Of a stretch of 64,000 nt of DNA, positions 59 through 61,723 are shown in pieces. Made by a program: the position numbers and the translations under genes. How positions within the stretch are numbered: the stretch's first letter is position 1; every line of letters begins with the position of its first letter. Source of the DNA: an uncultured Bacteroidales bacterium (lineage in GTDB: Bacteria; Bacteroidota; Bacteroidia; Bacteroidales; Muribaculaceae); NCBI GenBank assembly GCA_958418815.1, contig CATZGB010000015.1:113-64112 (forward strand), given 5' to 3'. The notes beneath the pieces are model-generated. The model did no database searches, was not told the origin of the DNA, and worked only from the letters and a program-made list of their open reading frames with translations.

Positions 59-66
59 TTTTCAAG

Positions 67-139
67 TGATCCGCCTGGGGCTCGAACCCAGGACCCCAAC
101 ATTAAAAGTGTTGTGCTCTACCAGCTGAGCTAGCGAATC
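67..139 (-). tRNA. tRNA-Lys, anticodon UUU
   Basis: The reverse complement folds as a cloverleaf. Acceptor GATTCGC/GCGGATC has one G-U. D-arm is GCTCAGCTGGTAGAGC. Anticodon stem CAACA/TGTTG carries loop CTTTTAA. T-arm is CTGGGTTCGAGCCCCAG. Discriminator is A and no CCA is encoded. Confidence 0.9.
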
Positions 140-6258: not shown

Positions 6259-7524
6259 TCAGCGGCTGCGGTGTCCGCCTCCTCCTCCCGAACGTCCTCC
6301 GCCGGAATACCCGCCTGAACGGCTGCCTCCGGAGTAGCCGCCCGACGAGCGGTTGGAGTTGTAGCTTCCCGAACGGTTGGAGTTGTAGCTTCCCGAACGG
6401 TTGGAGTTGTAGCTGTTGGATGAGCCGTTTCTGGTCGACTGCGAGGCTCCGAAATTCCCCCGGTTGTAATTGCCGTTGGTGGTGCCTGGCTGTCTGGTGC
6501 TTCCTGAACCGTAACCTGTGGATGGCCTGTAGCCTGACGTGCCGGTGCCAAAATGAGAGTTGCGTCCGGCGCCGTTACCGCCATAATAGCCGCCGTTGGT
6601 TGAGCCTGCCGCAGCCGGCGGACGATACCCTGGACGTGTGGATGTGCCGGCGGAGGAGTGTCCGTAACGGCCCCCTGCTCCATAGTTGTAACTGGGTACG
6701 CGCGGACGGTGGGCCGCCGAAGGTGAGGGGCGGTAGTTGACGCTGCCCCAGTGTCCGGGGTAATATCCCGGATATCCCCATGCCCAGGAGGGGGAGGTCC
6801 ATCCCCATCCCCAGCTCCAGGAGGGATAGTAGTCCCATCCCCACCAGGGGTTGTACCAATAGTAGGGATTGCGCCAAGAGTAATAGGGCCATCCCCACGT
6901 GTTGTAGTAGCTGTAATACCCGTAGGGGTAACCGGGGCCGAAGTTGATGCTCAGGGCTGTCTGGGGACTGGCGTTGTAGCCTGCGTCATAGCCCGAGGAA
7001 TATCCGGCATTGTAAATGTCGGCGTATTGTTCCCCCAGGCTGGGGTCGATTGCCTGTGAGGCGAGCGCCTCTTTCGCCACCTGGGAGTCTCCGAAACGCG
7101 CAAGGTAGTCGGTGGCCGACATGGCCTCGAAGTCCTGGAGCGAAATCGAGTCGGGAGCCGCCGTCTGGAATGCGCCACGGCGGTTGTACTCGTCCACATC
7201 ACGGGTGGAGCCGCCGGAAGGCAGGTATGACCCTGCTGCCTGGAAGTCGCCGACACTGTCCCAGGGGACATATGCCGCCCCGTCGTAATAATACATTCCC
7301 GAAGCCGCCCCGGGCTGTGAGGTGGTGGCGGCCTTCGATGGCTTGGGCGCTACGGTCTTGGGCGCTTCTTTCTTCGCCTTTGACGCGTCGTAATACAGGT
7401 CATCGTCATAATATCCCTGGGCGGACGCCAGCATCACGGTGGCGCATAGCGCCGCCGGAAGAATCAGGGCCTTGGGCTGGAGCGACGAGAGTCTCCGCTC
7501 CAATATGGATTTGAGAGTTTTCAT
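6259..7524 (-). CDS. Secreted low-complexity Tyr/Trp/Gly/Asn/Arg-rich protein
   Basis: The internal start MKTLKS... (7524) is preferred because a signal-peptide-like ILPAALCATVMLASAQ follows. It has a W/Y/P block (WGWPYYSWRNPYYWYNPWWGWDYYPSWSWGWGW) and a GSYNSNRS x3 plus GGYSGG tail. It sits directly upstream of the OM barrel gene. Confidence 0.6.
   Translation of the reverse strand: MKTLKSILERRLSSLQPKALILPAALCATVMLASAQGYYDDDLYYDASKAKKEAPKTVAPKPSKAATTSQPGAASGMYYYDGAAYVPWDSVGDFQAAGSYLPSGGSTRDVDEYNRRGAFQTAAPDSISLQDFEAMSATDYLARFGDSQVAKEALASQAIDPSLGEQYADIYNAGYSSGYDAGYNASPQTALSINFGPGYPYGYYSYYNTWGWPYYSWRNPYYWYNPWWGWDYYPSWSWGWGWTSPSWAWGYPGYYPGHWGSVNYRPSPSAAHRPRVPSYNYGAGGRYGHSSAGTSTRPGYRPPAAAGSTNGGYYGGNGAGRNSHFGTGTSGYRPSTGYGSGSTRQPGTTNGNYNRGNFGASQSTRNGSSNSYNSNRSGSYNSNRSGSYNSNRSSGGYSGGSRSGGYSGGGRSGGGGGHRSR
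6350..6417. repeat. 24-nt tandem repeat (~2.8 copies) inside the low-complexity gene
   Basis: cggttggagttgtagcttcccgaa is repeated head to tail and encodes the SGSYNSNR repeats. Confidence 0.85.
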
Positions 7525-8356: not shown

Positions 8357-8485
8357 AATATTTGGTTTTTGAAACAGTTGTTGGCTTGATTGTTTTGTGA
8401 TATTATAACAATGGTTAATCTGAAATGGTTGGTGGTTTCCGCCGAAATTTGTAATTTTGCATTGTCCTTTCAGTTAAGGATATGC

Positions 8486-11026
8486 GGTATGGGGCGCAGT
8501 CGCGCTTCCCCGCTTGGAAAACAGACAAAACTTATTTCCCCATTGATATATCCCGATTCTTTTGAACACAAGACCGGATTCAACGCCGTCAGAACCCGGA
8601 TTTCTGAACTGTGCGCATCCTCGGCAGGCCGTAAGGAGGTCGAGGATATGGCGTTCATGACAGACTTCACGGCCATCTCCCGGGCACTTGGTGCCGTGGA
8701 CGAGATGGTCAGCGCCGTGTCGGCCGAGGGGGGCTTCTCGCTTGGGGCTGTGCCTGATCTTGCTGCACCTATGGCCCGGGCGCGTGCCGAGGGGGCTTTC
8801 CTCTCCGCCGAAGAGTTCCTGCTTGTCTCCAGGTCATTGGCCACCGCCGCTGAGGTGGCGCGTTTTTTTGCTGCCGGGCCAGCCTATGAGGAGGATGACG
8901 CGACCGAGGCAAATGTCGCCTATCCGTTGCTGCGCGAACAGGCCTCCTCTCTTGACCCGCTGCCGTTGTTGGCCAGGGAGATAGACAAGGTCATAGACCC
9001 CTATGGCAACGTGCGCGACAACGCTTCGCCCGAACTCGCGCGGATACGCTCGGAGCTGTCGCGCATCTCAGGCACTGCAAACGCGATACTGCGTCGTGTG
9101 ATGGCCCGCGCGGTGGAGGAGGGGCTGCTTGAGTCAGACGCCGCGCCGTCGGTGCGCGACGGCCGTCTTGTGATTCCGGTGCCGCCGATGAACAAGCGGC
9201 GCATACAGGGTATAGTCCATGACCAGTCGGCTTCGGGAAAGACTTATTTCATCGAACCTGCCGAGGTGGTTGAGGTCAACAACCGCCAGCGCCAGCTGCA
9301 GCTTGAGGAGCAACGCGAGATTGCCAGGATACTGATTCAACTGACAGCCTCGTTGCGGCCGTTCATGGCGGAAATCCTGGAGAACACCCGCAGGCTCGGC
9401 TGGTTTGACTTCGTGCTGGCCAAGGCGCGTTATGCGGGGGAGACCGGCGGCATGATGCCCCGCCTCTCTGCCGGGCAGGAACTTGAATGGTACCACGCCG
9501 TCCACCCGGTGTTGCTGCTCTCGTTGCGGTCGAAAGGGAAGGAGGTGGTGCCGCTTGACATCCGCCTTACCCCTGCCGAGCGCATCCTGGTGATTTCCGG
9601 CCCGAATGCCGGTGGAAAGTCGGTGTGTCTCAAGACTGTGGGCATTATCCAGTATATGACCCAGGCTGGTGTGCTGCCCCCGCTTTACGAGAACTCCAGG
9701 ATGGGGATATTCGATGACATTTTCATCGACATAGGCGATGACCAGTCGATTCTCGACGACCTGTCGACCTACTCCTCGCATCTACGCAACATGAAGCTGT
9801 TCCTGAAAAACGGACGTGTGGGCTCGTTGATGCTGATAGATGAGTTTGGTGCCGGCACAGAGCCGCAGATTGGCGGGGCGATGGCACAGGCGATTCTCGG
9901 TTCGCTCAACCGCCTCGGGGTGTGGGGAGTGGTCACCACCCATTTCCAGAATCTCAAGCTTTTCGCCCGCGACACTGAGGGGCTCGTCAATGGTTCGATG
10001 CTTTATGACAGGCAGCAGCTGCGCCCGCTCTTCAGGCTCGCCATAGGTTCGCCTGGAAGCTCGTTCGCCCTTGAAATCGCCCGCACCGCCGGGTTACCCA
10101 AGGAGGTGATTGACAATGCCCGCGAGATTGCAGGGTCAGACTATGTCAATCTCGACAAATACTTGCTCGACATCGCCCGCGACAGGCGCTATTGGGAAAA
10201 CAAGAGGCTCGACATCAAGCGCAAGGAGAAACAGCTCGACCAGACCCTCGCCCATTACGAGGAGGATGCCGAGACTCTGAGGGCGCGGCGCAAGGAGATT
10301 ATCGCCGAGGCCCGCGAGGAGGCCCGGCGGATTCTCGACTCCTCCAACGCCTCGGTGGAGCGCGCCATCCGCGAGATTCGTGAGGCCCAGGCCGACAAGG
10401 AGCGCACTCGCCTGGCGCGTGAGAAGCTCGCCCAGGAGAAGCAGGAACTGACAGACAGGCTCTCCGACGGCAGGGACGACTCGGAAAACAAGTTGCTGAA
10501 AAAGGCCCCGCGTCCCAAAAAAGCGGGTACCCATCCCAAGGAGCCACGCAAGGCCGAAGAGCCGCTCAAGCCGGGCGATTTCGTGAAGCTCGACGGGGGC
10601 GGGACGGTAGGTACTGTCATCGAAATAGCCGGGAACAATGCCGTGTGCTCATTCGGCATGCTGAAGACCACCGTCAAGGTGCAGCGCCTGAGCCGTACCA
10701 TGGGCAAACCCTCGTCAGGAGCCAAGTCCTCATCGTTCCTCAGCCGCTCTACGACCGACTCCCTCAGGGAGCGGCAGCTGTCGTTCAGGCCGGAAATCGA
10801 TGTCAGGGGGATGAGGGCTGATGAAGCCCTCCAGGCGGTGACTTATTTCATTGACGACGCGATACAGTTTCAGCAGTCGCCTGTCAGGATTCTGCACGGC
10901 ACCGGCACAGGCGCTTTGCGCCAGGCCCTGCGCCGTTATCTCGACACAGTCCCCGGGGTTGTCTCATATTCCGACGAGGATGTGCGTTTCGGCGGGGCCG
11001 GGATTACGGTGGTCAACCTGCGTTGA
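8486..11026 (+). CDS. mutS2: Endonuclease MutS2 (MutS ATPase plus C-terminal Smr domain)
   Basis: Walker A is GPNAGGKS, then LIDEFGAGTEP, a long coiled-coil region, and an Smr end (DVRGMRADEAL...ILHGTGTGALR). The start is uncertain. The ATG at 8486 is reported, but the in-frame TTG at 8543 would give MIYPDSFEHK, the usual MutS2 N-terminus. Confidence 0.9.
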   Translation, partial: GMGRSRASPLGKQTKLISPLIYPDSFEHKTGFNAVRTRISELCASSAGRKEVEDMAFMTDFTAISRALGAVDEMVSAVSAEGGFSLGAVPDLAAPMARARAEGAFLSAEEFLLVSRSLATAAEVARFFAAGPAYEEDDATEANVAYPLLREQASSLDPLPLLAREIDKVIDPYGNVRDNASPELARIRSELSRISGTANAILRRVMARAVEEGLLESDAAPSVRDGRLVIPVPPMNKRRIQGIVHDQSASGKTYFIEPAEVVEVNNRQRQLQLEEQREIARILIQLTASLRPFMAEILENTRRLGWFDFVLAKARYAGETGGMMPRLSAGQELEWYHAVHPVLLLSLRSKGKEVVPLDIRLTPAERILVISGPNAGGKSVCLKTVGIIQYMTQAGVLPPLYENSRMGIFDDIFIDIGDDQSILDDLSTYSSHLRNMKLFLKNGRVGSLMLIDEFGAGTEPQIGGAMAQAILGSLNRLGVWGVVTTHFQNLKLFARDTEGLVNGSMLYDRQQLRPLFRLAIGSPGSSFALEIARTAGLPKEVIDNAREIAGSDYVNLDKYLLDIARDRRYWENKRLDIKRKEKQLDQTLAHYEEDAETLRARRKEIIAEAREEARRILDSSNASVERAIREIREAQADKERTRLAREKLAQEKQELTDRLSDGRDDSENKLLKKAPRPKKAGTHPKEPRKAEEPLKPGDFVKLDGGGTVGTVIEIAGNNAVCSFGMLKTTVKVQRLSRTMGKPSSGAKSSSFLSRSTTDSLRERQLSFRPEIDVRGMRADEALQAVTYFIDDAIQFQQSPVRILHGTGTGALRQALRRYLDTVPGVVSYSDEDVRFGGAGITVVNLR

Positions 11027-32495: not shown

Positions 32496-32577
32496 CCTGA
32501 TTTGCTGACGATTTGCTGACGAGATTCTGACTAATCATTTTTTTGAGATTTTCTTTGGCAGAATGAATGCTGTGTTG

Positions 32578-32585
32578 TAACTTTG
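32578..32585 (+). promoter_or_regulatory. -7 box TAACTTTG, unit 1 of cassette copy 1
   Basis: TAnnTTTG match. The predicted 5' end coincides with the first helix strand at 32590. Confidence 0.55.
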
Positions 32586-32589
32586 CAGT

Positions 32590-32762
32590 GCTACAACCAA
32601 GGTGATTAGTTCACCCCGCACGAGCGCGGTAAATGCTCGACATATTTTGCGGGCTTTTTTTATGCCCGGACATACCAGCCATATGCGGCTGTCACCGATA
32701 TCATTTGACGTGCTCTTAGGAGTGAACGACTTTGGTTGTAGCAACGGTGACAGCCGTTTTTT
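32590..32762 (+). ncRNA. Structured ~173-nt leader/ncRNA, unit 1 (unassigned family)
   Basis: Helix A is 32590-32600 with 32732-42. Helix B is 32686-97 with 32745-56 (12 bp, perfect), followed by T6. A U-loop hairpin lies at 32650-32668. Both helices covary with copy 2. Confidence 0.6.
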
Positions 32763-32786
32763 ATTAATAGCTACAATCAAAGTCGT

Positions 32787-32884
32787 ATGAGAACAACCAA
32801 CACCATCGCCCTGAGCCAGGGCGCGTCGGCCCGCATTCTGCCGGGCGCGGTCTCCACAAAAATCCGCGCAATCGCTTGCGGATT
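32787..32884 (+). other. Truncated duplicate of the first 24 codons of the 2-TM ORF plus hairpin
   Basis: ATG plus [21 protein letters not shown] is identical in sequence to 33127-33198. It then diverges into hairpin aatccgc/gcggatt (32861-32884). Confidence 0.6.
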
Positions 32885-32897
32885 CAAAAAATCTGCT

Positions 32898-32905
32898 TAC
32901 CTTTG
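32898..32905 (+). promoter_or_regulatory. -7 box TACCTTTG, unit 2 of cassette copy 1
   Basis: TAnnTTTG match. The helix strand starts 8 nt downstream. Confidence 0.55.
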
Positions 32906-32910
32906 CAGCG

Positions 32911-33078
32911 TCTTCCATTTGAAACAGGCGACAGCGTCGCCGTCAGCCAGCCAAGCCGTCGGCCTTTTTTGTGGCCGTAGGTCTGTGGCCTACAATATTG
33001 GTTCCGTCCCGTGTGGAGCGTTAATGCGCCCACTGCCTGTTTCAAGGTGGAATGCAACGGGGAGCGGAACCTTTTTTT
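32911..33078 (+). ncRNA. Structured ~168-nt leader/ncRNA, unit 2 (unassigned family)
   Basis: Helix A is 32913-29 with 33035-52. Helix B is 33000-12 with 33057-71, followed by T7. A U-loop hairpin lies at 32960-32977. The architecture matches unit 1. Confidence 0.6.
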
Positions 33079-33126
33079 GTTTCTTCCCTGGGCAAGTTAA
33101 TATAGTTTCATTTAAAGCATTCCGAA

Positions 33127-33384
33127 ATGAAAACAACCAACACCATCGCCCTGAGTCAGGGCGCGCCGGCCCGCATTCTGCCGGGCGCGGTCTCCACAAC
33201 CATCATCCCGGCCCTCCGCGCCATCAGCGTGGCCGCCTCTGTCATCCTCGCGCCGGTGGCCTACCTGCAATGCGCCGCCGGGACTCCGTCGCTGCCCGTG
33301 ATACTGGGCGCGTCGGCCAGCCTGCTGGCGGCGGCATTCCTCCGCCCCTCGTCAACCTCAAGCCGGAAAGGAGGTGACAGATGA
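33127..33384 (+). CDS. Small membrane protein, two predicted TM helices, basic C-terminus (holin-like or type-I-toxin-like features)
   Basis: 85 codons with strong GC3 periodicity. A paralog at 56172-56429 shows 76 of 85 identical residues. An AGGAGG lies near its 3' end, just before the next ATG. Confidence 0.6.
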   Translation: MKTTNTIALSQGAPARILPGAVSTTIIPALRAISVAASVILAPVAYLQCAAGTPSLPVILGASASLLAAAFLRPSSTSSRKGGDR

Positions 33385-33575
33385 GCTTCCGTTTTGAGAA
33401 GAAGGTCGCCATCACCCGGGAGGTGATGGGCGCGCACGTCGTGGAGTTGAAGATTGATGGCTACAGCTCGGGGTTCATCGTCGTGGACGAGCCTCAAGAC
33501 CTGTGTCTGCTCCGTGACAAGCTCGACGAGTACATCAACGAACATGGAATCAAAGAGCCTGAGACCTATGAGTAA
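33381..33575 (+). CDS. Small soluble protein, translationally coupled (ATGA overlap)
   Basis: 64 aa. The paralog at 56426-56629 shares the core GFIVVD.P.DL.LLRD...EYI...GIK. AGGAGGTGA precedes the ATG. Confidence 0.6.
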   Translation: MSFRFEKKVAITREVMGAHVVELKIDGYSSGFIVVDEPQDLCLLRDKLDEYINEHGIKEPETYE

Positions 33576-54375: not shown

Positions 54376-54609
54376 TCATTTGCAATATTCGTTCCACATT
54401 TCCATTATCTCGTCATGGTATTTTTCCACAAGGTCTAACGCGGTGGAAATCTCTTTAGGCTTCAATCCGGAGTTGGACATCACCTTTATCTCCGGCTCGA
54501 CCTGTATCTTCGCCGACGCGTCGCCTTTTACGACATGTAAATGCACCGGGAGATGGTCGCCGGAAAAGAAGTAGCCGCGAAGTCCTAATATCTCAAATAC
54601 TGTTGGCAT
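54376..54609 (-). CDS. DUF4160-like protein (putative toxin partner)
   Basis: YFFSGDHLPVHLHVVKGDASAKI matches the DUF4160 pattern. It is adjacent to a DUF2442 gene. Confidence 0.65.
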   Translation of the reverse strand: MPTVFEILGLRGYFFSGDHLPVHLHVVKGDASAKIQVEPEIKVMSNSGLKPKEISTALDLVEKYHDEIMEMWNEYCK

Positions 54610-54633
54610 GATTTCGTGGTTTTGTTTGCATCA

Positions 54634-54641
54634 CAAAGATA
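54634..54641 (-). promoter_or_regulatory. -7 box TATCTTTG for the DUF4160/DUF2442 operon
   Basis: Plus-strand caaagata lies about 25 nt upstream of the ATG at 54609. Confidence 0.5.
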
Positions 54642-54709
54642 GGGATAAATTTTTATCCCCGCAAGAAAATCACGATTTTTTTCAGATTTGTTTGCCGGTT
54701 CCGGAATTG

Positions 54710-54752
54710 TCCCAATCTTTTCCAATCTCGTCAACATTGGAAAAGATTGGGA
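54710..54752. repeat. Perfect 17-bp inverted repeat with 9-nt loop
   Basis: tcccaatcttttccaat ... attggaaaagattggga, between the two divergent TA modules. Confidence 0.85.
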
Positions 54753-54802
54753 TGCCGCGGCTCCGCCGGGACGCTTTTAACAATTATTCTTACCGAAAAT
54801 TT

Positions 54803-54831
54803 TGCTAAATAAAAATTTAGCATTATCTTTG
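54803..54831 (+). promoter_or_regulatory. hicAB promoter: palindromic operator plus -7 box TATCTTTG
   Basis: The palindrome tgctaaat-aaaa-atttagca (54803-54822) abuts TATCTTTG (54824-54831). The ATG is at 54856. Confidence 0.55.
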
Positions 54832-55117: not shown

Positions 55118-55525
55118 ATGAGGACAGTACGTGTATTTATTGAACGCGGCAAAGATGGCACTTTCGGCGCCTATATGCCCGATGACAACAATCTCTCTTA
55201 TGGCATTATCGGCGATGGTGCGACTGCCGCTGCTGCCATTGAAGATTTTAAGGCTGAGTATGAAGATATGAAAGCCTTCTTCATGGAGGAAGGAAAGCAT
55301 TTTGAGGAAGTGAATTTTGCGTTCTCGTATGATTTGCCCTCATTCCTCGTCTACTATGCAGACCTTATCTCGTACAAAGGTCTTGCCAAGCTCACAGGCG
55401 TGTCTGCCGCTCAGCTCTCGCAGTATATCTCAGGCTATCGCACTCCGTCGCCCAAAACTACTGAGAAGATTCAGACTGCGCTTCACGCTTTCGGTAAAGA
55501 ATTAAGCCAGTTACAGCTTGTTTGA
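55118..55525 (+). CDS. hicB: HicB-family antitoxin with C-terminal HTH
   Basis: The N-terminus VFIERGKDGTFGAYMPD...GDGATAAAAIEDF is HicB/UPF0150-like. The C-terminal LAKLTGVSAAQLSQYISG is an HTH. Confidence 0.8.
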   Translation: MRTVRVFIERGKDGTFGAYMPDDNNLSYGIIGDGATAAAAIEDFKAEYEDMKAFFMEEGKHFEEVNFAFSYDLPSFLVYYADLISYKGLAKLTGVSAAQLSQYISGYRTPSPKTTEKIQTALHAFGKELSQLQLV

Positions 55526-55555
55526 TTTACACCTTAACATTGTTCGCACTGGCAG

Positions 55556-55586
55556 CACCCTCGCCATCACGGCGGGGGTGTTTTTT
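55556..55586 (+). terminator. Intrinsic terminator (same motif as 30930)
   Basis: caccctcgcc atcac ggcgggggtg followed by T6. Confidence 0.7.
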
Positions 55587-55611
55587 ATTTGCAGAATCCG
55601 TTTTTTGTGCT

Positions 55612-55619
55612 TACCTTTG
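55612..55619 (+). promoter_or_regulatory. -7 box TACCTTTG, unit 1 of cassette copy 2
   Basis: TAnnTTTG match. The helix strand begins at 55624. Confidence 0.55.
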
Positions 55620-55623
55620 CAAT

Positions 55624-55794
55624 GCGAAACTCATAATGGTCGGTCCATTCCGAGGAGCCACGGTTAAAGGCTCGACATTCTATCGGGCATTTTTTATGCC
55701 CTCACATACCAGCTACGGCTGTCATATCCAAATAACTTTTGCTCTTCGGAGCTGACTGTTATGAGTTTCGCGACGGGATATGGCAGCCGTTTTT
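55624..55794 (+). ncRNA. Structured ~171-nt leader/ncRNA, unit 1 of copy 2
   Basis: Helix A is 55624-36 with 55759-71. Helix B is 55716-29 with 55776-89 (one G-U), followed by a T-run. The U-loop hairpin cgggc-auuuuuuau-gccc is conserved. Confidence 0.6.
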
Positions 55795-55820
55795 CTGTCT
55801 AACGCGAAACTCATAACAGT

Positions 55821-55924
55821 ATGGAATCCAAAACAACCAACACCATCGCCCTGAGCCAGGGCGCGCCGGCCCGCATCCTGCCGGGCGCGGTCTCCACAAA
55901 AATCCGCGCAATCGCTTGCGGATT
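55821..55924 (+). other. Truncated duplicate of the 2-TM ORF 5' end plus hairpin (copy 2)
   Basis: Same ~70-nt element and same aatccgc/gcggatt hairpin (55901-55924) as at 32787-32884. Confidence 0.6.
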
Positions 55925-55937
55925 CAAAAAAACTGCT

Positions 55938-55945
55938 TACCTTTG
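55938..55945 (+). promoter_or_regulatory. -7 box TACCTTTG, unit 2 of cassette copy 2
   Basis: TAnnTTTG match. The helix strand begins at 55950. Confidence 0.55.
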
Positions 55946-55949
55946 CAGT

Positions 55950-56115
55950 GTTCACCATTTGATACAGGCGAGTCAATCGCCGAAGCTAATAGCCATCGGC
56001 CTTTTTTATGGCCGTAGGTTTGTCTATAACATTGGTTCCGTCCCGTGTGGAGCGTTAATGCGCCCACAGCCTGTATCAGGTGGTGAACAACGGGGAGCGG
56101 AACCTTTTCTGTTTT
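55950..56115 (+). ncRNA. Structured ~165-nt leader/ncRNA, unit 2 of copy 2
   Basis: Helix A is 55950-69 with 56069-88 (20 bp, two G-U). Helix B is 56034-46 with 56090-104, followed by a T-run. Confidence 0.6.
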
Positions 56116-56171
56116 CGCTCCAGAAGAGTAGTTCAACATCTTTCTTAGGTTTCATTTAATTGTTCACCGAA

Positions 56172-56429
56172 ATGAAAACAACCAACAGCATCGCCCTCCA
56201 ACAGGGCGCGTCAGCCCGCATCCTGCCGGGCGCGGTCTCCACAACCATCATCCCGGCCCTCCGCGTAATCAGCGTGGCCGCCTCTGCCATCCTCGCGCCG
56301 GTGGCCTACCTGCAATGCGTCGCCGGGACTCCGTCGCTGCCCGTGATACTGGGCGCGTCGGCCAGCCTGCTGGCGGCCGCATTCCTCCGCCCCTCGTCAA
56401 CCGTAAGCCGGAAAGGAGGTGAGGTATGA
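56172..56429 (+). CDS. Small two-TM membrane protein, paralog of 33127-33384
   Basis: 85 codons. By my manual alignment, 12 codons differ from copy 1 (3 synonymous, 9 non-synonymous). Confidence 0.6.
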   Translation: MKTTNSIALQQGASARILPGAVSTTIIPALRVISVAASAILAPVAYLQCVAGTPSLPVILGASASLLAAAFLRPSSTVSRKGGEV

Positions 56430-56629
56430 AACGTGACAGCAAGACAAGTATGGAAAAGAGGGTGGTGGTGACCCGTGGCCACAAGGGGGCGCGGGTGGTC
56501 GAATACCAGGTTGGTGAGTTCAGCGGGGGATTCATTGTCGTAGACGCTCCATCAGACCTCTACCTCCTGAGGGATGGAATCGAGGAGTACATCCTCGCCA
56601 ACGGCATCAAGCCCCCATCGGGGAAATGA
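56426..56629 (+). CDS. Small soluble protein, paralog of 33381-33575 (ATGA-coupled)
   Basis: 67 aa. Roughly half of the aligned residues are identical to copy 1. Confidence 0.6.
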   Translation: MKRDSKTSMEKRVVVTRGHKGARVVEYQVGEFSGGFIVVDAPSDLYLLRDGIEEYILANGIKPPSGK

Positions 56630-56661
56630 CGGGGCACTCATAGGTGCCAAGGTAATAAAGC

Positions 56662-56695
56662 AGCCGCCCGACGCTTTGCGCGCCGGGCGGCTTTG
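56662..56695 (+). terminator. Hairpin terminator-like element
   Basis: agccgcccg / cgggcggct (9 bp) followed by ttgtgt. Confidence 0.5.
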
Positions 56696-57136
56696 TGTGG
56701 AAGCTCCCGGGCGTTGTCCGGGAGCGCGCCTGAAACGGCTGTCAAACCAAAAGGGATTCAGGACGTGTGGTGGTCGTGGCATATTCCGCTTGGGTCGGAG
56801 GGGGTCCAGGAAGTCTCCCGGCTCAGGGCGGTGGGGGGTGCAGAGACGCAATAAGGGGGCGAAATCGCCCCCTTTACCCCCTCAATCCGCTCAGTGGCAG
56901 CGGATTGAATTTTTCAACTCAGGGAGATTGAAAAATTTTCTTGGGGATTGCCGTTAAAATGTCTTTAACGGCGGGCGGGAAATAGGAAGCAAGCCGCTTC
57001 AAACCAGCGCCTTGCCGGGAGTCCACGCCGAATTCCAAGGGCATTTGGAATCCGGCGGTTCTGGCCTGCGGGAGGTGTCTTTTCGGGCAAATGAAAATAT
57101 GATGAATTTTGGCCTTGAATCAAATATGGTTATAGT

Positions 57137-60100
57137 ATGGCCAATTATGAATCTTATGCGACTGTCGTTTTGTCCGTCAATGGAAAGAAAGCTAAAGAAA
57201 TGTTCCGCGAATTGGAAAAGGATGCGGAAAGGCTTGGACGTGAAATAGATAAGGCCGCAAGGGCGGGAGACAAGGCCACCATGAAGCAGTTCCAAAAGGA
57301 GCTTAACTCTACGAAGCGAATGATGGATCAGCTAAATGGCGCAGCGTATTCGGTGGAGAATGTCCTTCATCGATTGGATAAGGCCACCCCGAAAGAGTTG
57401 AACAGCGCGTTGCGCAGACTGAAAATGGATCTCAACGGACTTGAGAGAGGAACTTCGGCTTGGGATGCCCATATCGTGAAGATTCGAGCTGTCAAAGAAG
57501 AGATTCGCCGAGTCAATGACACTATGCGGACTCAGCAGGTTCTCACCTCTGGTTTGAAGGACAGTTTCGATCGGTTGAAGATTTCCTTGCTGGGAGTTGT
57601 CGGGGCTTTCTCTGGAATGTTTATGGCCGGGCGCAAGTCGGTGGACGCTTACGCCGAGATGGAACAGGAGGAGGCCAATGTCAGGAAATACACCGGGATG
57701 GCGGCCCGTGAGGTCGGGGCGCTAAACGAGGAGTTCAAGAAGATGGACACGCGCTCGTCCCGCGAGCAGCTCAACCAATACGCCCAGGAGGCAGGCCGCC
57801 TGGGAAAGCAGACCCAGGAGGATGTCCTGGGGTATGTGAAGGCGGCTGACAAGGTCAACGTGGCCCTCGATGACCTCGGAAAGGGAGCGACCCTGACGCT
57901 GTCGAAGCTGACGGGGATTTTCGGCGACGAGAAGCGTCTCGGCACCGAGAAGGCCCTGCTCTCGGTCGGCTCGGTCATCAACGAGCTGTCGCAGAACTGC
58001 TCGGCCTCGGCCCCGTACCTGGCCGAGTTCGCCTCGCGTGTCGGGGGTGTCGGCAAGCAGGCGAATATGACCGTCCAGCAGATCATGGGCTTCGCGGCGG
58101 TTCTCGACAGCAACAACCAGAAGGTTGAAGCGTCTGCGACTGCCTTGTCACAGGTGATCGTGCGCATATACCAGGAGCCGGCGAAGTACGCCAAGGTGGC
58201 CGGCCTGGATGTGAAGCGGTTCTCCAAGCTGGTGAAGGAGGACATGAACGCGGCCCTGCTCGAGTTCCTCACGGCGCTCAAGTCGGCGGGGAGGATGGAC
58301 ACCCTCTCACCGATGTTCAAGGACATGGGGGAGACGGGCGCGCGGGCCATAGCTGCATTGTCGACTCTGGCGGGACATGTCGGGGAGGTCAAGGCGCAGC
58401 AGGCCGAGGCTAACAAGGCTTTCGCCGAGGCCACGTCTATCGGCAATGAGTTCGACGTGCAGAACAATACCGTGATGGCCGGCCTCGAGAAGGCGCGCAA
58501 GCGTGTCAACGAGTATGCCGTGGAGCTTGGCGAGAAGCTCTGCCCGGTGATGAAGCTTTTCTATTCATCCTCGACGGTGGCCTTGAAGGTGCTTTCCGTC
58601 ATGGTCGATTATTTCCTCAAGAACAGGACGGGCATCACGATGGCCGCGGCGGCGGTGGCTGCATACTCCGTCGCGGTGCTGGCTGTTTCCGTGAGGGTCA
58701 AGGCCTACAACGCGCTGCTGCTGGTGGGCGCGAAGGCCCAGTCGGCGTGGTCGGTCGTGACTCGTCTGGGGGCTGTGGCCGCAGCCGCTTTCCGCAATTC
58801 GGTGGATTACCTGCGCAACGGCCTTGAGGTCACCTACACTATGCAGGAGCGGTGGAGCAAGGCCATGGCCGCGATGAACTGGAAGCTCTGGGCCGCCGGT
58901 GTGCTTGGGGTCGCTGCCGCCGTGGCTTACCTCTGCAAGGTGATGACAGATACTTTCTCGGTGAGCAAGCTGCTGTCTGATGTGAACAAGGAGGCAAACA
59001 AGACTATCGCCGAGCAGAAAGGGAAGATTGATGACCTCAGGCGGGCGATGAATGACCAGAACCTGTCATACGCCGAGCGCATAAAGGCCATCAAGGAGCT
59101 GGAGCGCATCATCCCCGGCTACCACGCATGGCTGACCCGCGAGGGTGAGATCATCAACGAGAACACCAAGGCGATCGACGACTATGTCGAGTCGCTCCGG
59201 AAGGCGGCCCGCGCGGAAGCGGCCAAGGCCAAGCTGGTCGAGCTGGAGAAGGAGAGGCTCGACATCGAGACAGACATGGAGGCTGACAAGGACTTCAACT
59301 ACGAGCGCGGGGCCTGGGCGATTCTCGGAGGCGCCGGCAACCCGGTGATGGCGGCGGCCCAGTACACCGCGCAGTCGGGTGTGGCCCGTGGTGTGAATGA
59401 GGCAAAGCTGCTCGGGATCCGGCGGAAGACGGAGGCCCTCGAGGGCCTTATCGCCGGGGAACGGGAGAAGGAGCTGGAGGATGACAAGGCCCGGCGCGAG
59501 GAGGAGAACGCGATGATGCTCAAAATCAACCGGGAGCTGTACGCGGGCAATGAGGAATACCGCAAGGAGGTCGACAAGTGGAAGGAGAAGCTTAAGCGTG
59601 ACCGCGAGACGATGTCGGAGGCGAAGGCCAACAAGGCATACAATGACGGCATCTTCGGCCTTAACCAGCGTTACTTCGGCACGACGGTTGAGACGGAGCC
59701 TGAGGCCGATTTCGGGAAAGGGTATGTGTCGACTGTGCAGGCCGCCAAGGAGGCAAAGAAGTCGGAGCTTGAGGCCAAGCGCGAGCTCGCCAAGGCCAAG
59801 GCCTCCTTCAAGGCTGCCATGGCGAAGGCAAAGGGTGACTGGGAGACCGGGGCGGCCGACAACGAGGTCGAGTACGCCCAGGGATTGAAGACTTACCAGG
59901 ATTTCCTCGATGAGAAGGAGAGGCTTGACCGGGAATACATAGATGCCCGAATCCGGATTTACGAGGGGCTTTACGAAGACGAGACCCCGCAAGCCCGGAA
60001 GCTGCTGCTGAATTATGACGAGACTTACCGCAAACTGCTCCTGGAAAGGGCGCAGGCAGAGCGAGCGGCCATGGAGAAACAGTCGGCGCAGTCTGTCAAG

Positions 60101-61723
60101 TCGCTGGAGAAGGAGTACAAGATGCGGCAGCGCGACCTGAAACGGCGCGTGACTGACTCCCGCGCCCTTGTGCAGGGACTGTTCCAGCTCAAGGTCACAT
60201 ACCTCAGGAAATACCGCGACACCTACAAGGAGTATTCCAAGGAGTGGGTGAAGTACAACGAGCAGCTCGAGGAGGAACTGCACGAGGATATGGTCAAACG
60301 TCAGAAGGAGCTTGCGGAATACCTTGAGCGGTACCGGGCCGGGAACGGCTCCGACGACTGGGAGGGGCAGGCGCAGCGGCGGCTCACATATGAGCTTGGC
60401 CTGATAAATGAACTGAATGACCAGCGAAAGCTCTCTGATGAGGAGTACTTCGAGGCTTTTGACAAGACTTACAACAAGTATCTCGACGGCATCGAGGCCG
60501 AGCGTGACAAGCGCGCGTCCAAGAATGCCTTGAAGAGTCTGGAGGTGGTGACCGGGATAAATCAGGATGGCACGGTGGAGACCAAAAGTGTTGACCTGCG
60601 TTCATCCGGCAGCAAGGCATACGACAAGCTCCACGGTGCTTATGAGGAGGCCAATGTGCAGATCAAGAAGCTGCGCCAGGATTTCGAGGCCGGGTCTCTC
60701 ACGTTGGAGCAGTTCCAGGAGGGGCTGTCTACCGCACGCAAGAACCTGCGGGAAGCGTTGAATGAGTTCCTTGAGCCTCTGGTCGGAAAGGATTTCTCCT
60801 CGATCGTGAACATGGGCGTGGCCGTCTGTGACGTGTTCCGCAACATGGCTGAGACCGGGCGGCTGAGCTGGGATGACATCGCCTCGGCGGCGGAGTCCTC
60901 GGTGGCGGCGATGACGGCCGCCCTACAGACTTACAGCCAGTTCGCGGCGGCGCAGTCAAAAATCGACATCGCCAACGCCGAGAAGAAGTATGACGCGATG
61001 CTCGAGGCGGCCGAGGGTAACTCCTACATGACCCGCAAGCTTGAGAAGGAGAAGGAGGCGGAACTTGAGAAGTTGAAGGCGAAGGCTGTCAATGAGGAGT
61101 TCAAGTTGAAGGTCGTGGAGGCTGTGGCGCAGACCGCGTCCAATGCGATTGCCGCTTATGGGGCGGGTCTCAAGTTCCCTTTCCCGGCCAACACTGTGAT
61201 GCCGGCGGTGCTTGCCGGGCTGGCCACGGCGAGCGGCTTGGTGCAGGTGGCGTTGATCAAGAAGCAGCAGCAGGCCGCTGCTGCCTCCGGGTATTCGGAG
61301 GGCGGTTTCACCCCGGCCGGCCCTAAAGACCGGGAGGTGGGCGTGGTTCACGCCGGGGAGTGGGTGGCCTCGCAGAAGCTCGTCAACAATCCCCGCGTCC
61401 GCCCGCTCCTGGAGGCTCTTGACCGCGCCCAGCGCGCCAACACCATCGGCTCCATCACCCAGGCCGATGTCTCCAGGTCGGTGGCGGCCCCGATGGTGCT
61501 GGCCGCCCAGCGCCAGGAGCCGGTGGTGGTCAACGTCCCTGCCCCGGCCCCGGCTCCGGAGCGCGGCGATTCGCGCGCCGCGGAGGTGCTGGGCCGCCTG
61601 GCCAGGAGGCTCGACGAGCCTTTCGTGACGGTCAACACCGTCACGGGCGACAAGGGCATGAAGAAGGCCCAGGATGATTACGACCGGCTTATGAGGAACA
61701 AGAGGCCAAAACTTCGTAAATGA
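57137..61723 (+). CDS. Tail tape measure protein
   Basis: 1528 aa with extensive coiled coil, central hydrophobic TM-like segments (AAAVAAYSVAVLAVSV...) and a Lys/Glu-rich repeat character. Confidence 0.85.
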   Translation: MANYESYATVVLSVNGKKAKEMFRELEKDAERLGREIDKAARAGDKATMKQFQKELNSTKRMMDQLNGAAYSVENVLHRLDKATPKELNSALRRLKMDLNGLERGTSAWDAHIVKIRAVKEEIRRVNDTMRTQQVLTSGLKDSFDRLKISLLGVVGAFSGMFMAGRKSVDAYAEMEQEEANVRKYTGMAAREVGALNEEFKKMDTRSSREQLNQYAQEAGRLGKQTQEDVLGYVKAADKVNVALDDLGKGATLTLSKLTGIFGDEKRLGTEKALLSVGSVINELSQNCSASAPYLAEFASRVGGVGKQANMTVQQIMGFAAVLDSNNQKVEASATALSQVIVRIYQEPAKYAKVAGLDVKRFSKLVKEDMNAALLEFLTALKSAGRMDTLSPMFKDMGETGARAIAALSTLAGHVGEVKAQQAEANKAFAEATSIGNEFDVQNNTVMAGLEKARKRVNEYAVELGEKLCPVMKLFYSSSTVALKVLSVMVDYFLKNRTGITMAAAAVAAYSVAVLAVSVRVKAYNALLLVGAKAQSAWSVVTRLGAVAAAAFRNSVDYLRNGLEVTYTMQERWSKAMAAMNWKLWAAGVLGVAAAVAYLCKVMTDTFSVSKLLSDVNKEANKTIAEQKGKIDDLRRAMNDQNLSYAERIKAIKELERIIPGYHAWLTREGEIINENTKAIDDYVESLRKAARAEAAKAKLVELEKERLDIETDMEADKDFNYERGAWAILGGAGNPVMAAAQYTAQSGVARGVNEAKLLGIRRKTEALEGLIAGEREKELEDDKARREEENAMMLKINRELYAGNEEYRKEVDKWKEKLKRDRETMSEAKANKAYNDGIFGLNQRYFGTTVETEPEADFGKGYVSTVQAAKEAKKSELEAKRELAKAKASFKAAMAKAKGDWETGAADNEVEYAQGLKTYQDFLDEKERLDREYIDARIRIYEGLYEDETPQARKLLLNYDETYRKLLLERAQAERAAMEKQSAQSVKSLEKEYKMRQRDLKRRVTDSRALVQGLFQLKVTYLRKYRDTYKEYSKEWVKYNEQLEEELHEDMVKRQKELAEYLERYRAGNGSDDWEGQAQRRLTYELGLINELNDQRKLSDEEYFEAFDKTYNKYLDGIEAERDKRASKNALKSLEVVTGINQDGTVETKSVDLRSSGSKAYDKLHGAYEEANVQIKKLRQDFEAGSLTLEQFQEGLSTARKNLREALNEFLEPLVGKDFSSIVNMGVAVCDVFRNMAETGRLSWDDIASAAESSVAAMTAALQTYSQFAAAQSKIDIANAEKKYDAMLEAAEGNSYMTRKLEKEKEAELEKLKAKAVNEEFKLKVVEAVAQTASNAIAAYGAGLKFPFPANTVMPAVLAGLATASGLVQVALIKKQQQAAAASGYSEGGFTPAGPKDREVGVVHAGEWVASQKLVNNPRVRPLLEALDRAQRANTIGSITQADVSRSVAAPMVLAAQRQEPVVVNVPAPAPAPERGDSRAAEVLGRLARRLDEPFVTVNTVTGDKGMKKAQDDYDRLMRNKRPKLRK

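What the first reader, a model, noticed from the sequence alone, without database searches (positions are those of the whole stretch)
55612..56629. Cassette copy 2 supplies compensatory changes that support the predicted helices
The same four-part layout recurs 23 kb downstream, in front of the tape measure gene. In unit 1, helix A is entirely different in sequence (gcgaaactcataa 55624-36 with ttatgagtttcgc 55759-71, versus gctacaaccaa with ttggttgtagc in copy 1), yet both strands changed together. Helix B changed from ..tcaccg/cggtga.. to ..tcatatcc/ggatatgg.. with a matching partner change (55716-29 with 55776-89). In unit 2, helix A changed gaaaca/tgtttc to gataca/tgtatc and ttcca/tggaa to gttcacc/ggtgaac (55950-69 with 56069-88, 20 bp with two G-U). 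The single-stranded core is conserved (gctcgacat, the U-loop hairpin, acataccagc). Double substitutions that keep pairing in four separate helices are hard to explain except by selection on RNA (or ssDNA) structure.
Basis: seen in the sequence. Interest (0 to 1): 0.85.

Follow-up and report, generated by a model that had tools for sequence, protein, structure and literature searches.

The report
Switchable leader RNA of Bacteroidales phages
The paired helices are real and belong to a large, apparently undescribed family of about 170-base structured leader RNAs in gut Bacteroidales phages, each with its own promoter, a built-in terminator and a copy of its 5' end placed right at the start codon of the next gene, so it most likely works as a two-state switch for phage gene expression.

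Summary

- **One RNA class.** The two "units" are subfamilies of one class found in at least 120 and in 91 IMG/VR viral contigs. It also occurs in prophages of many Bacteroidales genomes.
- **No known family.** Nothing in Rfam 15 matches.
- **Shared anatomy.** A Bacteroidota-type promoter comes first. Helix A starts at the 5' end of the RNA. A hairpin with a conserved U-rich loop follows. Helix B plus a U-run forms an intrinsic terminator whose 5' arm lies inside helix A.
A second copy of the helix-A 5' arm (A'') ends 0-4 nt before the ATG of the first ORF and pairs with the helix-A 3' arm.
- **Covariation is very strong.** Of the cells, 94.9% are paired against 68% in shuffles, and 30 of 30 pairs show double changes. 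An alignment not fitted to structure gives the same answer.
- **Two balanced folds.** In read-through RNA the A5':A3' and A3':A'' folds are nearly isoenergetic.

Best reading: a bistable cis-acting leader that couples termination with start-site masking. It resembles P4 CI, P1 c4 and IsrK in logic but is not homologous to them. Its input signal is unknown.

The parts
55588..55619 (+). Copy 2, unit 1 promoter of Bacteroidota type (TTTG ... TAccTTTG)
   Evidence: The pattern TTTG-N17-23-TANNTTTG gives 8 matches in the window against 0.41 expected. Two of them sit directly upstream of the two unit-1 RNAs.
55623..55799 (+). Copy 2, unit 1 leader RNA. Helix A 5' arm is 55624-36. A local hairpin lies at about 55635-49. 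The U-loop hairpin is 55685-55701. Helix B 5' arm is 55716-29. A UUCG-type hairpin is 55741-52. Helix A 3' arm is 55759-71. Helix B 3' arm is 55776-89, followed by the U-run 55790-94.
   Evidence: Covariance model R1 scores it 160.9 bits, E = 1.9e-48. The arms are confirmed. The fold z-score is -7.3.
55804..55823 (+). A'' of unit 1: a second copy of the helix-A 5' arm (gcgaaactcataacagt) followed immediately by ATG. With 55803 it pairs over 18 bp (100% complementary) with 55755-55772.
   Evidence: Inverted repeat I2 and direct repeat D1. The same arrangement is found in 80 of 88 homologues, with A'' ending within -3 to +5 nt of the ATG.
55821..55899 (+). Duplicated start of the small hydrophobic ORF (about 25 codons, [22 protein letters not shown]). 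It runs into the promoter of unit 2.
   Evidence: Alignment A1 and repeat family D1. An analogous duplication of unit plus ORF start occurs in L007.
55938..55945 (+). Copy 2, unit 2 promoter, -7 element TAccTTTG
   Evidence: Read from the sequence. The same element precedes unit-2 homologues.
55950..56115 (+). Copy 2, unit 2 leader RNA. Helix A 5' arm is 55950-69. The U-loop hairpin is 55997-56014. Helix B 5' arm is 56034-46. A further hairpin is 56047-67. Helix A 3' arm is 56069-88. Helix B 3' arm is 56090-56104, followed by the U-run 56105-15.
   Evidence: Inverted repeat I1. The fold z-score is -6.4. Helix A covaries in alignment A5.
56163..56174 (+). A'' of unit 2: a 7-nt copy of the RNA's 5' end (gttcacc), then gaa, then ATG
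   Evidence: The code is found exactly in 52 of 57 unit-2 homologues, 3-4 nt before the ATG. The pairing A3':A'' is 91.8% against 66% in shuffles.
56172..56429 (+). First ORF of the cassette, an 85-aa hydrophobic protein. Its 3' end contains the strong Shine-Dalgarno sequence AGGAGGTGA of the next ORF.
   Evidence: ORF list. No Pfam or PHROG match for the copy-1 paralogue or this ORF. Shine-Dalgarno match.
56426..56629 (+). Second ORF, 67 aa. Its start overlaps the stop of the first ORF (ATGA).
   Evidence: ORF list. No family match.
56662..56692 (.). Hairpin of 13 bp that closes cassette copy 2, ahead of the tape-measure gene (57137-61723)
   Evidence: Terminator scan. Tape-measure assignment.
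32554..32585 (+). Copy 1, unit 1 promoter
32589..32766 (+). Copy 1, unit 1 leader RNA
   Evidence: Model R1 scores it 190.5 bits. Arms confirmed.
32770..32789 (+). Copy 1, unit 1 A'' (gctacaatcaaagtcgt) followed by ATG
   Evidence: Inverted repeat I1 and direct repeat D1
32910..33078 (+). Copy 1, unit 2 leader RNA
   Evidence: It is row win_c1u2 of alignment A5.
33117..33129 (+). Copy 1, unit 2 A'' (gcattcc) followed by ATG. It pairs perfectly with the helix-A 3' arm end ggaatgc, whereas the 5' arm (gtcttcc) has two mismatches.
   Evidence: and inverted repeat I4
33127..33575 (+). Copy 1 ORFs: the 85-aa hydrophobic ORF 33127-33384 and a 64-aa ORF 33381-33575. The second overlaps the start (33568) of the next ORF.

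Best explanation
Each 'unit' is a cis-acting, two-state leader RNA (riboregulator) at the head of a phage transcription unit.

**Steps read from the sequence**
- A Bacteroidota promoter starts the RNA exactly at the helix-A 5' arm (A5').
- The RNA folds into a multi-helix core closed by helix A (A5':A3').
- Immediately after A3' comes the 3' arm of helix B and a U-run. This is an intrinsic terminator whose 5' arm lies inside the core.
- Most transcripts are therefore expected to stop there as a short RNA of about 170 nt.

**The switch in read-through transcripts**
- Read-through transcripts carry a second copy of A5' (A'') abutting the start codon of the first ORF.
- A3' can pair either with A5' or with A''.
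- Pairing with A5' leaves the start region free, so translation is ON.
- Pairing with A'' buries the start region, so translation is OFF.
- This matters because Bacteroidota initiation normally relies on an unstructured start region and not on a Shine-Dalgarno sequence (my own knowledge, not checked here).

**Downstream genes**
- Downstream ORFs overlap stop-to-start and carry strong AGGAGGTGA sites, so they would follow the first ORF by translational coupling.

**Shown and inferred**
- Shown: the parts, their order, the three-way covariation, and the near-equal computed stability of the two folds.
- Inferred: that B terminates, that the A3':A'' fold blocks initiation, and that some input shifts the balance.
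- The input could be a protein, a small molecule, the short RNA itself or co-transcriptional kinetics. The conserved U-rich loop and core are the likely recognition surface.

**Likely biological role**
- The switch would keep accessory or regulatory operons silent in the lysogen and release them on a signal.
- In some phages these operons encode antirepressors. In this window they encode small membrane proteins.
For: - **Promoter and start.** The TTTG...TAnnTTTG motif sits 3-5 nt before A5' in 48 of the 54 unit-1 homologues in which the motif was found.
- **Structure, fitted alignment.** All 30 of 30 pairs show double changes and 94.9% of cells are paired, on 93 matches.
- **Structure, unfitted alignment.** MAFFT alignment A5 gives 96.2% for helix A and 91.8% for A3':A''.
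- **Alignment-free test.** Within a unit, the longest pairing A5':A3' has a median of 16 bp and A3':A'' 17 bp. Between units the median is 8 bp.
- **Position of A''.** It ends within -3 to +5 nt of the ATG in 80 of 88 unit-1 cases. It lies 3-4 nt before the ATG in 51 of 57 unit-2 cases.
- **Helix B.** It is followed by a U-run in every member. Its inner part changes by class with matching partners: TCACCG/CGGTGA, TCATATCC/GGATATGA, CCTTTCCC/GGGAAATGG, CCATCTCG/CGGGATGTG.
- **Bistability.** Over 86 instances the two read-through folds differ by +0.9 kcal/mol on average (sd 3.2).
- **Strand and molecule.** G-U pairs outnumber A-C by 159 to 31.
- **Downstream genes.** First ORFs are diverse and never carry the strong Shine-Dalgarno site, while the following ORFs do. 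Some first ORFs are Rha/KilAC and Bro-N/KilAC antirepressors.
- **Precedent.** IsrK of Gifsy-1 is a prophage RNA with a leaky terminator. Its read-through mRNA is translationally silent until refolded, and a small first ORF is coupled to the next gene (PMC4825925).
Against: - No expression or probing data were available. Termination at B, read-through and start-site masking are all inferred.
- In a nested energy model the short RNA prefers helix A over helix B by about 8 kcal/mol. B must then form kinetically or together with A as a pseudoknot, and neither could be modelled.
- No candidate input (ligand or protein) was identified.
- The unit-1 alignment used for pair counts was fitted to the model's structure.
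- Homologues were retrieved with sequence patterns that fix the U-loop hairpin and part of helix B. Conservation of those parts is therefore overstated.
- Cassette copy 2 is closed by its own hairpin.
Confidence: 0.6

Rival explanations
1. Trans-acting immunity-type RNA, as in P4 CI, P1/P7 c4 or IsrK. The short terminated RNA is the active product. It pairs in trans with read-through or superinfecting transcripts, either through A3' with A'' (repressing) or through A5' with A3' (activating). The variable helix-A sequence would then be a specificity code that separates phages, or units within one phage.
For: - The layout matches P4's seqA - CI(seqB) - seqC: an upstream copy, a complementary segment in the small RNA, and a downstream copy at the first translated region, as summarised in PMC4825925.
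- Some family members sit directly in front of antirepressor genes. That is the class of gene controlled by c4 in P1 (my own knowledge).
- The three-way part of helix A is as variable as or more variable than two-way parts, although it needs triple changes. There are 15 codes among 57 unit-2 sequences, with entropy of 1.0-1.7 bits per position.
- The four units in this window all carry different codes.
Against: - In the short RNA, A3' is buried in a 12-20 bp helix with A5'. It is not exposed in a loop as in c4 and CI.
- The cis copy of A5' makes a trans partner unnecessary.
- Different codes in tandem units are expected by chance. About 90% of random pairs differ, as computed from the code frequencies.
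- This reading is not exclusive of the cis switch.
Confidence: 0.25
2. Type I toxin-antitoxin module. The small hydrophobic ORF is a membrane toxin, and the upstream RNA is its antitoxin, pairing with the toxin's start region.
For: - In this window the first ORF is an 85-aa hydrophobic protein.
- Many first ORFs in the family are small and have a C-terminal membrane segment.
- The RNA is complementary to the start region.
Against: - First ORFs are very diverse. They include a soluble 65-aa family and 240-257-aa Rha/Bro antirepressors.
- The ORFs are longer than typical type I toxins.
- The RNA is on the same strand and upstream, with its own terminator, and the complementary segment is self-paired.
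Confidence: 0.05
3. A DNA-level feature, for example a small mobile insertion with a 13-17 bp target duplication (A5' and A''), a recombination site, or a single-stranded DNA structure.
For: - A5' and A'' are direct repeats exactly 180 nt apart in both cassettes.
- Without the unit, the promoter would abut a short 5' UTR and the ATG.
Against: - An insertion cannot explain an internal inverted copy (A3') that always matches the flanking repeats.
- G-U pairs are frequent and strand-specific (159 against 31).
- Six other helices covary.
- Promoter and terminator orientation fit an RNA.
Confidence: 0.03
4. Retron-like msr/msd RNA, which is also closed by variable inverted repeats.
For: It is a structured RNA of 150-190 nt closed by a long helix of variable sequence formed from its two ends.
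Against: - Among 86 first ORFs downstream, none is a reverse transcriptase.
- The large ORFs tested in the window include no RT.
- There is no Rfam retron match.
- The terminator and the start-codon copy have no place in a retron.
Confidence: 0.01

Closest known systems
Bacteriophage P4 immunity: CI RNA with seqA / seqB / seqC (as summarised in PMC4825925; details from my own knowledge)
   Same: - It is a leader-encoded small RNA on the same strand as its target.
- A segment of the RNA is complementary both to an upstream copy and to a downstream copy lying at the first translated region of the operon.
- It controls premature termination in the lysogen.
- The specificity sequence varies between related phages.
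   Different: - There is no detectable sequence or structure homology. The Rfam C4/CI-type models give no match.
- P4 CI is cut out of the leader and acts in trans with an exposed seqB. Here the complementary segment is paired in a long helix and followed by its own intrinsic terminator.
- The host phylum and promoter type differ.
IsrK-orf45-anrP locus of Salmonella prophage Gifsy-1 (PMC4825925)
   Same: - It is a prophage RNA with its own promoter and a leaky intrinsic terminator.
- Read-through gives an mRNA with two alternative folds, one of which is translationally silent.
- A small first ORF is translationally coupled to the next gene.
- That next gene, anrP, belongs to the cascade that switches on the antiterminator AntQ and leads to prophage induction.
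   Different: - In IsrK the short RNA activates the long form in trans. Here a cis copy of the competing strand exists, and the trans action is untested.
- The structures are unrelated.
- The present family has a conserved U-loop hairpin, and its terminator arm is embedded in the core.
Translational ON riboswitches in which the 3' strand of the closing helix P1 alternatively pairs with the start region (for example the Vibrio vulnificus add adenine riboswitch; my own knowledge)
   Same: - A closing helix of variable, covarying sequence surrounds a conserved core.
- Its 3' strand has an alternative partner at the translation start.
- A terminator is combined with start-site masking, as in dual-acting riboswitches.
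   Different: - No ligand is known, and no ligand-binding pocket can be inferred.
- The alternative partner is a near-exact copy of the 5' strand, 17 nt long.
- The element occurs in several copies per phage, in front of unrelated small ORFs, which is unlike a metabolite sensor.
Phage lambda PR' - 6S RNA - tR' and HK022 put RNAs (processive antitermination; my own knowledge)
   Same: - A constitutive promoter gives a short terminated leader RNA upstream of phage operons.
- There is more than one copy per genome.
   Different: - The lambda leader is not a conserved RNA structure, because Q acts at DNA.
- put RNAs are two stem-loops of about 65 nt that act on RNA polymerase and have no link to a start codon.

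Membership tests
Rfam C4 antisense RNA / P4 CI / IsrK families | A match to the curated covariance models (shared sequence and secondary structure) | tested here: not met
   cmscan of the whole window at gathering scores returns only a tRNA. cmscan of 55500-56700 with E up to 10 returns only noise, with none of these families.
Rfam C4 antisense RNA / P4 CI / IsrK families | The complementary segment of the small RNA has copies of its target both upstream and downstream on the same transcript | tested here: met
   Three-way complementarity of A5', A3' and A'' is seen in the window and in more than 130 homologues.
Rfam C4 antisense RNA / P4 CI / IsrK families | The short RNA acts in trans | not testable with these tools
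   This needs genetics or expression data.
Riboswitch | A conserved aptamer core closed by a covarying helix, plus an expression platform with mutually exclusive pairings | tested here: met
   Covariation is shown. The alternative pairing A3':A'' is shown. The two folds are near-isoenergetic.
Riboswitch | Direct binding of a small-molecule ligand | not testable with these tools
   No ligand candidate emerges. The downstream genes are diverse phage ORFs and not a metabolic pathway.
Intrinsic (Rho-independent) terminator | A G+C-rich stem immediately followed by a U-run | tested here: met
   Helix B of 12-15 bp is followed by UUUUU in both copies and in all homologues. The loop is unusually large, about 46 nt, and contains helix A's 3' arm.
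Type I toxin-antitoxin | A small hydrophobic toxin ORF as the constant partner of the RNA | tested here: not met
   First ORFs include soluble 65-aa proteins and 240-257-aa antirepressors.
Retron msr/msd | An adjacent reverse transcriptase gene | tested here: not met
   No RT occurs among the downstream ORFs of 86 instances or among the ORFs tested in the window.

The most novel reading that the evidence does not exclude
This is a new class of RNA regulator specific to Bacteroidales phages. Its hypervariable 5'-end 'code', repeated at the start codon, would act as an address, and its invariant U-loop and core would bind a still unknown signal: a phage or host protein, a small molecule, or the short RNA itself. 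If so, it is an RNA-based immunity and decision system for the most abundant temperate phages of the human gut, working by a three-strand exchange between the RNA's 5' end, an internal strand and the translation start.
Probability: 0.35. Interest if true: 0.85.

Novelty: new variant of a known kind. Interest (0 to 1): 0.74.

Why it matters
- **A gap in knowledge.** I know of no description of how temperate Bacteroidales phages regulate their genes, and four full-text searches found none.
- **Scale of the family.** It also occurs in prophages of Bacteroides, Prevotellaceae, Muribaculaceae, Porphyromonadaceae, Tannerellaceae and others, often in 2-4 copies per genome.
- **A regulatory principle.** It gives a concrete and testable principle for a phylum that normally does not use Shine-Dalgarno-led initiation.
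- **A candidate orphan switch.** Its structure is well supported by covariation, and its input is unknown.
- **A practical use.** The part is compact and modular, with a swappable 7-17 nt code. It could serve for engineering gene expression in gut Bacteroides.
- **An annotation use.** It can mark operon starts in uncultured gut phages.

Tried and rejected
- **Rfam.** Searches at gathering and at permissive thresholds gave no family.
- **GenBank phage records.** Only two unannotated faecal contigs matched.
- **First DNA pattern.** GCTCGACAT...ACATACCAGC proved too narrow.
- **RNAalifold on a MAFFT alignment of diverse unit-1 sequences.** It recovered only helix B, the U-loop hairpin and one local hairpin, because MAFFT shifted the register of helix A. 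I replaced it with a covariance model built from a clean 11-sequence seed.
- **Column-wise counting of helix B.** It is weakly informative. The retrieval pattern fixes its outer part and the inner part is aligned differently by class. An inner-part test gives a modest signal, 6.7 bp within units against 5.1 bp between units.
- **A possible small pseudoknot in the core.** CCGC:GCGG interleaved with GAGC:GCUC could not be confirmed column-wise.
- **Model R1 on unit 2.** It detects unit 2 only weakly (9.6 bits). The claim that units 1 and 2 are one class rests on shared architecture and the shared U-loop hairpin, not on a joint model.
- **Non-Bacteroidota pattern hits in genomes.** These were chance matches and did not score with the model.
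- **Literature searches.** None found a description of this RNA. It may be present as an anonymous candidate in large catalogues such as PMC10690425, which I could not check.
- **Protein families.** Searches gave nothing for the two cassette ORFs.
Full report
**1. The observation**

Cassette copy 2 lies at window 55588-56629 and copy 1 at 32554-33575. The repeat finder recovers them independently.

- Unit 1 helix A is 55624-41 with 55754-71.
- Unit 1 helix B is 55715-29 with 55776-90.
- Unit 2 helix A is 55949-69 with 56069-89.
- The corresponding arms of copy 1 have different sequences but the same complementarity.
- Both units fold far better than dinucleotide shuffles, with z = -7.3 and -6.4.

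- Helices A and B cross in the order A5' < B5' < A3' < B3'.
- Helix B is followed by a U-run, so it is an intrinsic terminator.
- A third copy of the helix-A 5' arm, here called A'', lies exactly 180 nt downstream of the first in both cassettes.
  - It directly abuts an ATG (55804-55820 then ATG 55821; 32770-32786 then ATG 32787).
  - It pairs with the helix-A 3' arm over 17-18 bp.
- Unit 2 has the same feature in short form. It is a 7-nt copy of the RNA's 5' end, 3 nt before the ATG of the 85-aa ORF (56163-69; 33117-23).

**2. It is a large family**

Nothing in Rfam 15 matches, either at gathering scores or with E up to 10.

- They found 91 contigs for unit 2.
- A scan of one genome per species found at least 118 stretches. 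Of the 80 loci I tested, the covariance model gave 67 matches.
- The hosts named are Bacteroides, Prevotellaceae, Muribaculaceae, Porphyromonadaceae, Tannerellaceae, Barnesiella, Dysgonomonas, Paludibacter and Rikenellaceae.
- A few matches come from contigs of MAGs labelled otherwise, which are probably mis-binned.
- Pattern hits in other phyla did not score and are chance matches.

The window itself is a Bacteroidales-type chromosome of about 57% G+C.

- Host genes occupy about 1-24 kb (beta-lactamase, PIF1 helicase, MutS2).
- A prophage follows from about 24-26 kb: primase, head protease, terminase, endolysin and tape measure.

**3. Anatomy shared by both subfamilies**

In order along the RNA:

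- a Bacteroidota promoter (TTTG ... TAnnTTTG), with 8 matches in the window against 0.41 expected, two of them upstream of the two unit-1 RNAs;
- A5', beginning 3-5 nt after the promoter, which is about the expected transcription start;
- a local hairpin;
- a GAGC:GCUC helix;
- a hairpin whose stem varies but whose loop (U6-7 A U) is the most conserved element, also present in unit-2 sequences retrieved with an unrelated pattern;
- the 5' arm of helix B (ACGGCUG...);
- a small UUCG-type hairpin;
- A3';
- a linker of 1-6 nt;
- the 3' arm of helix B and the U-run;
- a spacer, sometimes holding an extra hairpin;
- A'' and then ATG.

Short members lack the local hairpin and the GAGC:GCUC helix. 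They keep helix A, the U-loop hairpin, helix B and A''.

**4. Covariation**

- **Alignment-free test.**
  - On 88 distinct unit-1 instances, the longest pairing within an instance has a median of 16 bp for A5':A3' and 17 bp for A3':A''.
  - Arms taken from different instances give 8 bp.
- **Structure-fitted alignment.**
  - Covariance model R1 was built from a clean 11-sequence seed and aligned 93 matches.
  - On that alignment 94.9% of cells are paired, against 68.2% in shuffles and 36-43% with slid partners.
  - All 30 pairs show changes on both sides, and several helix-A pairs use all four Watson-Crick types.
  - This alignment is fitted to the structure.
- **Unfitted alignment.**
  - A plain MAFFT alignment of 21 unit-2 sequences gives 96.2% pairing for helix A, against 78% shuffled and 35-40% slid, with 11 pairs changed on both sides.
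  - The same alignment gives 91.8% for A3':A'', against 66% shuffled and 22-49% slid.
- **Unit-2 codes.**
  - Fifteen different 7-nt codes occur among 57 unit-2 sequences.
  - The 5' copy is exact in 56 and the start-codon copy in 52.
- **Helix B.**
  - Its outer part is invariant, partly because the retrieval pattern fixes it.
  - One pair alternates C-G 44 / U-A 25.
  - The inner part changes by class with matching partners.
- **Strand.**
  - G-U pairs outnumber A-C mismatches by 159 to 31.
  - Unit 2 keeps two conserved U-G pairs.
  - The structure therefore belongs to RNA of the + strand and not to DNA.

**5. What follows the RNA**

- A'' ends within -3 to +5 nt of the ATG in 80 of 88 unit-1 cases. 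It ends 3-4 nt before the ATG in 51 of 57 unit-2 cases.
- The first ORFs are diverse. They include:
  - small proteins with a C-terminal membrane segment;
  - a soluble 65-aa family;
  - in some phages, Rha+KilAC or Bro-N+KilAC antirepressors (Pfam).
- First ORFs typically end in K-K-G-G because their 3' end encodes the strong AGGAGGTGA site of the next ORF, which overlaps stop-to-start.
- In the window this strong site with an ATG occurs only three times. Two of the three are in the cassettes.
- The first ORF itself has no such site. Its start region is A''.
- Tandem units separated by a duplicated ORF start, as in this window, also occur with an unrelated ORF in locus L007.
- Copy 1 heads a run of ORFs leading to the head and packaging genes.
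- Copy 2 sits between an endolysin / HTH-antitoxin-like region and the tape-measure gene.
- Copy 2 is closed by its own 13-bp hairpin, so it looks like a self-contained module and not the tape-measure leader.

**6. Mechanism**

For 86 instances I folded the read-through RNA, from the start of A5' to ATG +18, with either A5':A3' or A3':A'' enforced.

- The two folds differ by +0.9 kcal/mol on average (sd 3.2).
- Either one is the unconstrained optimum in many cases.
- For the short RNA, a nested model prefers helix A over helix B by about 8 kcal/mol.
- Because A and B cross, they may coexist as a pseudoknot. The short A3'-B3' linker would allow the two helices to stack, with the RNA's 5' end abutting the 5' arm of B. 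That is my own geometric inference and could not be computed.

I therefore propose a bistable cis-acting leader.

- Most transcripts end at B.
- Read-through transcripts present the start region either free (A5':A3') or buried (A3':A'').
- Translation of the first ORF then drives the coupled downstream ORFs.
- The input that sets termination efficiency and the balance of folds is unknown. The invariant U-rich loop and core are the likely recognition surface.
- I hold this at about 0.6.

The main rival, at about 0.25 and not exclusive, is that the short RNA acts in trans as an immunity-type RNA.

**7. Comparison with what is known**

The logic is closest to P4 immunity and to IsrK of Gifsy-1.

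- In P4, CI RNA is complementary to seqA upstream and seqC downstream.
- In IsrK, a leaky terminator gives a silent read-through mRNA with alternative folds, and a small ORF is coupled to the next gene. Both are described in PMC4825925.
- The logic also resembles ON riboswitches whose P1 3' strand alternates with the start region.
- Membership in the C4/CI/IsrK RNA families fails the model test, so the resemblance is functional and not homology.
- Type I toxin-antitoxin, retron and DNA-element readings are rejected by the diversity of first ORFs, the absence of a reverse transcriptase, and the strand-specific G-U pairs together with the internal inverted copy.

**8. Novelty and verdict**

- Four full-text searches and a look into one catalogue paper found no description of this RNA.
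- It may exist as an unnamed candidate in large catalogues.
- I rate it a new variant of a known kind: a new, well-supported RNA family using a known type of alternative-pairing logic.
- Its unusual feature is a three-strand design, in which the RNA's own 5' end is duplicated at the start codon.

Noticed in passing
window 33369-33383 and 56414-56428; also loci L004, L006, L007, L008, L010: Genes that follow the first ORF of these cassettes are preceded by a near-perfect Shine-Dalgarno sequence (A/G)GGAGGTGA, with stop-start overlap. In the window this occurs only 3 times, 2 of them in the cassettes. To my knowledge Shine-Dalgarno use is rare in Bacteroidota, so these phage modules may rely on it for translational coupling or re-initiation.
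   Followed up: partly
window 55821-55899 and 32787-32865, compared with 56172-56250 and 33127-33205: The first 25 or so codons of the hydrophobic ORF are duplicated after unit 1 and run into the promoter of unit 2. In copy 2 this upstream reading frame stops at 56157-59, 12 nt before the real ATG. In copy 1 it is in another frame and runs to 33377. The duplicated segment contains two G+C-rich hairpins (gccctgagccagggc; gcgYcggcccgcatYctgccgggcgc).
   Followed up: partly
window 32910-32916, 33049-33055 and 33117-33123: In copy 1 unit 2, the 5' arm code (gtcttcc) has two mismatches to the 3' arm (ggaatgc), while the start-codon copy (gcattcc) is perfectly complementary. This unit may therefore be biased towards the masked fold.
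   Followed up: no
window 32603-32618 with 32729-32737; loci L006, L007, L109, L115: In the subclass of copy 1, the 5-6 nt right after the UUCG-type hairpin (for example GTGAAC) are complementary to the loop and 3' arm of the local hairpin that follows A5' (GTTCAC), and they change with it. This suggests a further alternative pairing that lengthens helix A. It was seen by eye on about 8 sequences and was not tested column-wise.
   Followed up: partly
window 54608-54808 and 55118-55525; locus L004 about 2500-3200: A small ORF and an HTH_3 protein lie just upstream of copy 2. A closely similar pair lies downstream of the leader cassette in L004, where the small protein looks HicA-like to me by eye. 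The cassettes seem to travel with such accessory modules.
   Followed up: partly
window 1-24000: The first 24 kb or so looks like host chromosome: tRNA-Lys at 66-139 (minus strand), a class A beta-lactamase-family ORF at 517-1452, a PIF1-type helicase with TPR repeats at 2411-4432, and MutS2/Smr at 8390-11026. A G+C dip at 24-26 kb may mark the prophage end.
   Followed up: partly
window 6331-6414: Three head-to-tail copies of a 24-nt unit (GGAGTTGTAGCTTCCCGAACGGTT) lie inside a minus-strand ORF region.
   Followed up: no
window 55907-55920 and 32867-32880: A small hairpin (aatccgcgcaatcgcttgcggatt) is flanked by A-runs on the + strand and T-runs on the minus strand, between the duplicated ORF start and the unit-2 promoter. 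It could terminate minus-strand transcription or insulate the two units.
   Followed up: no
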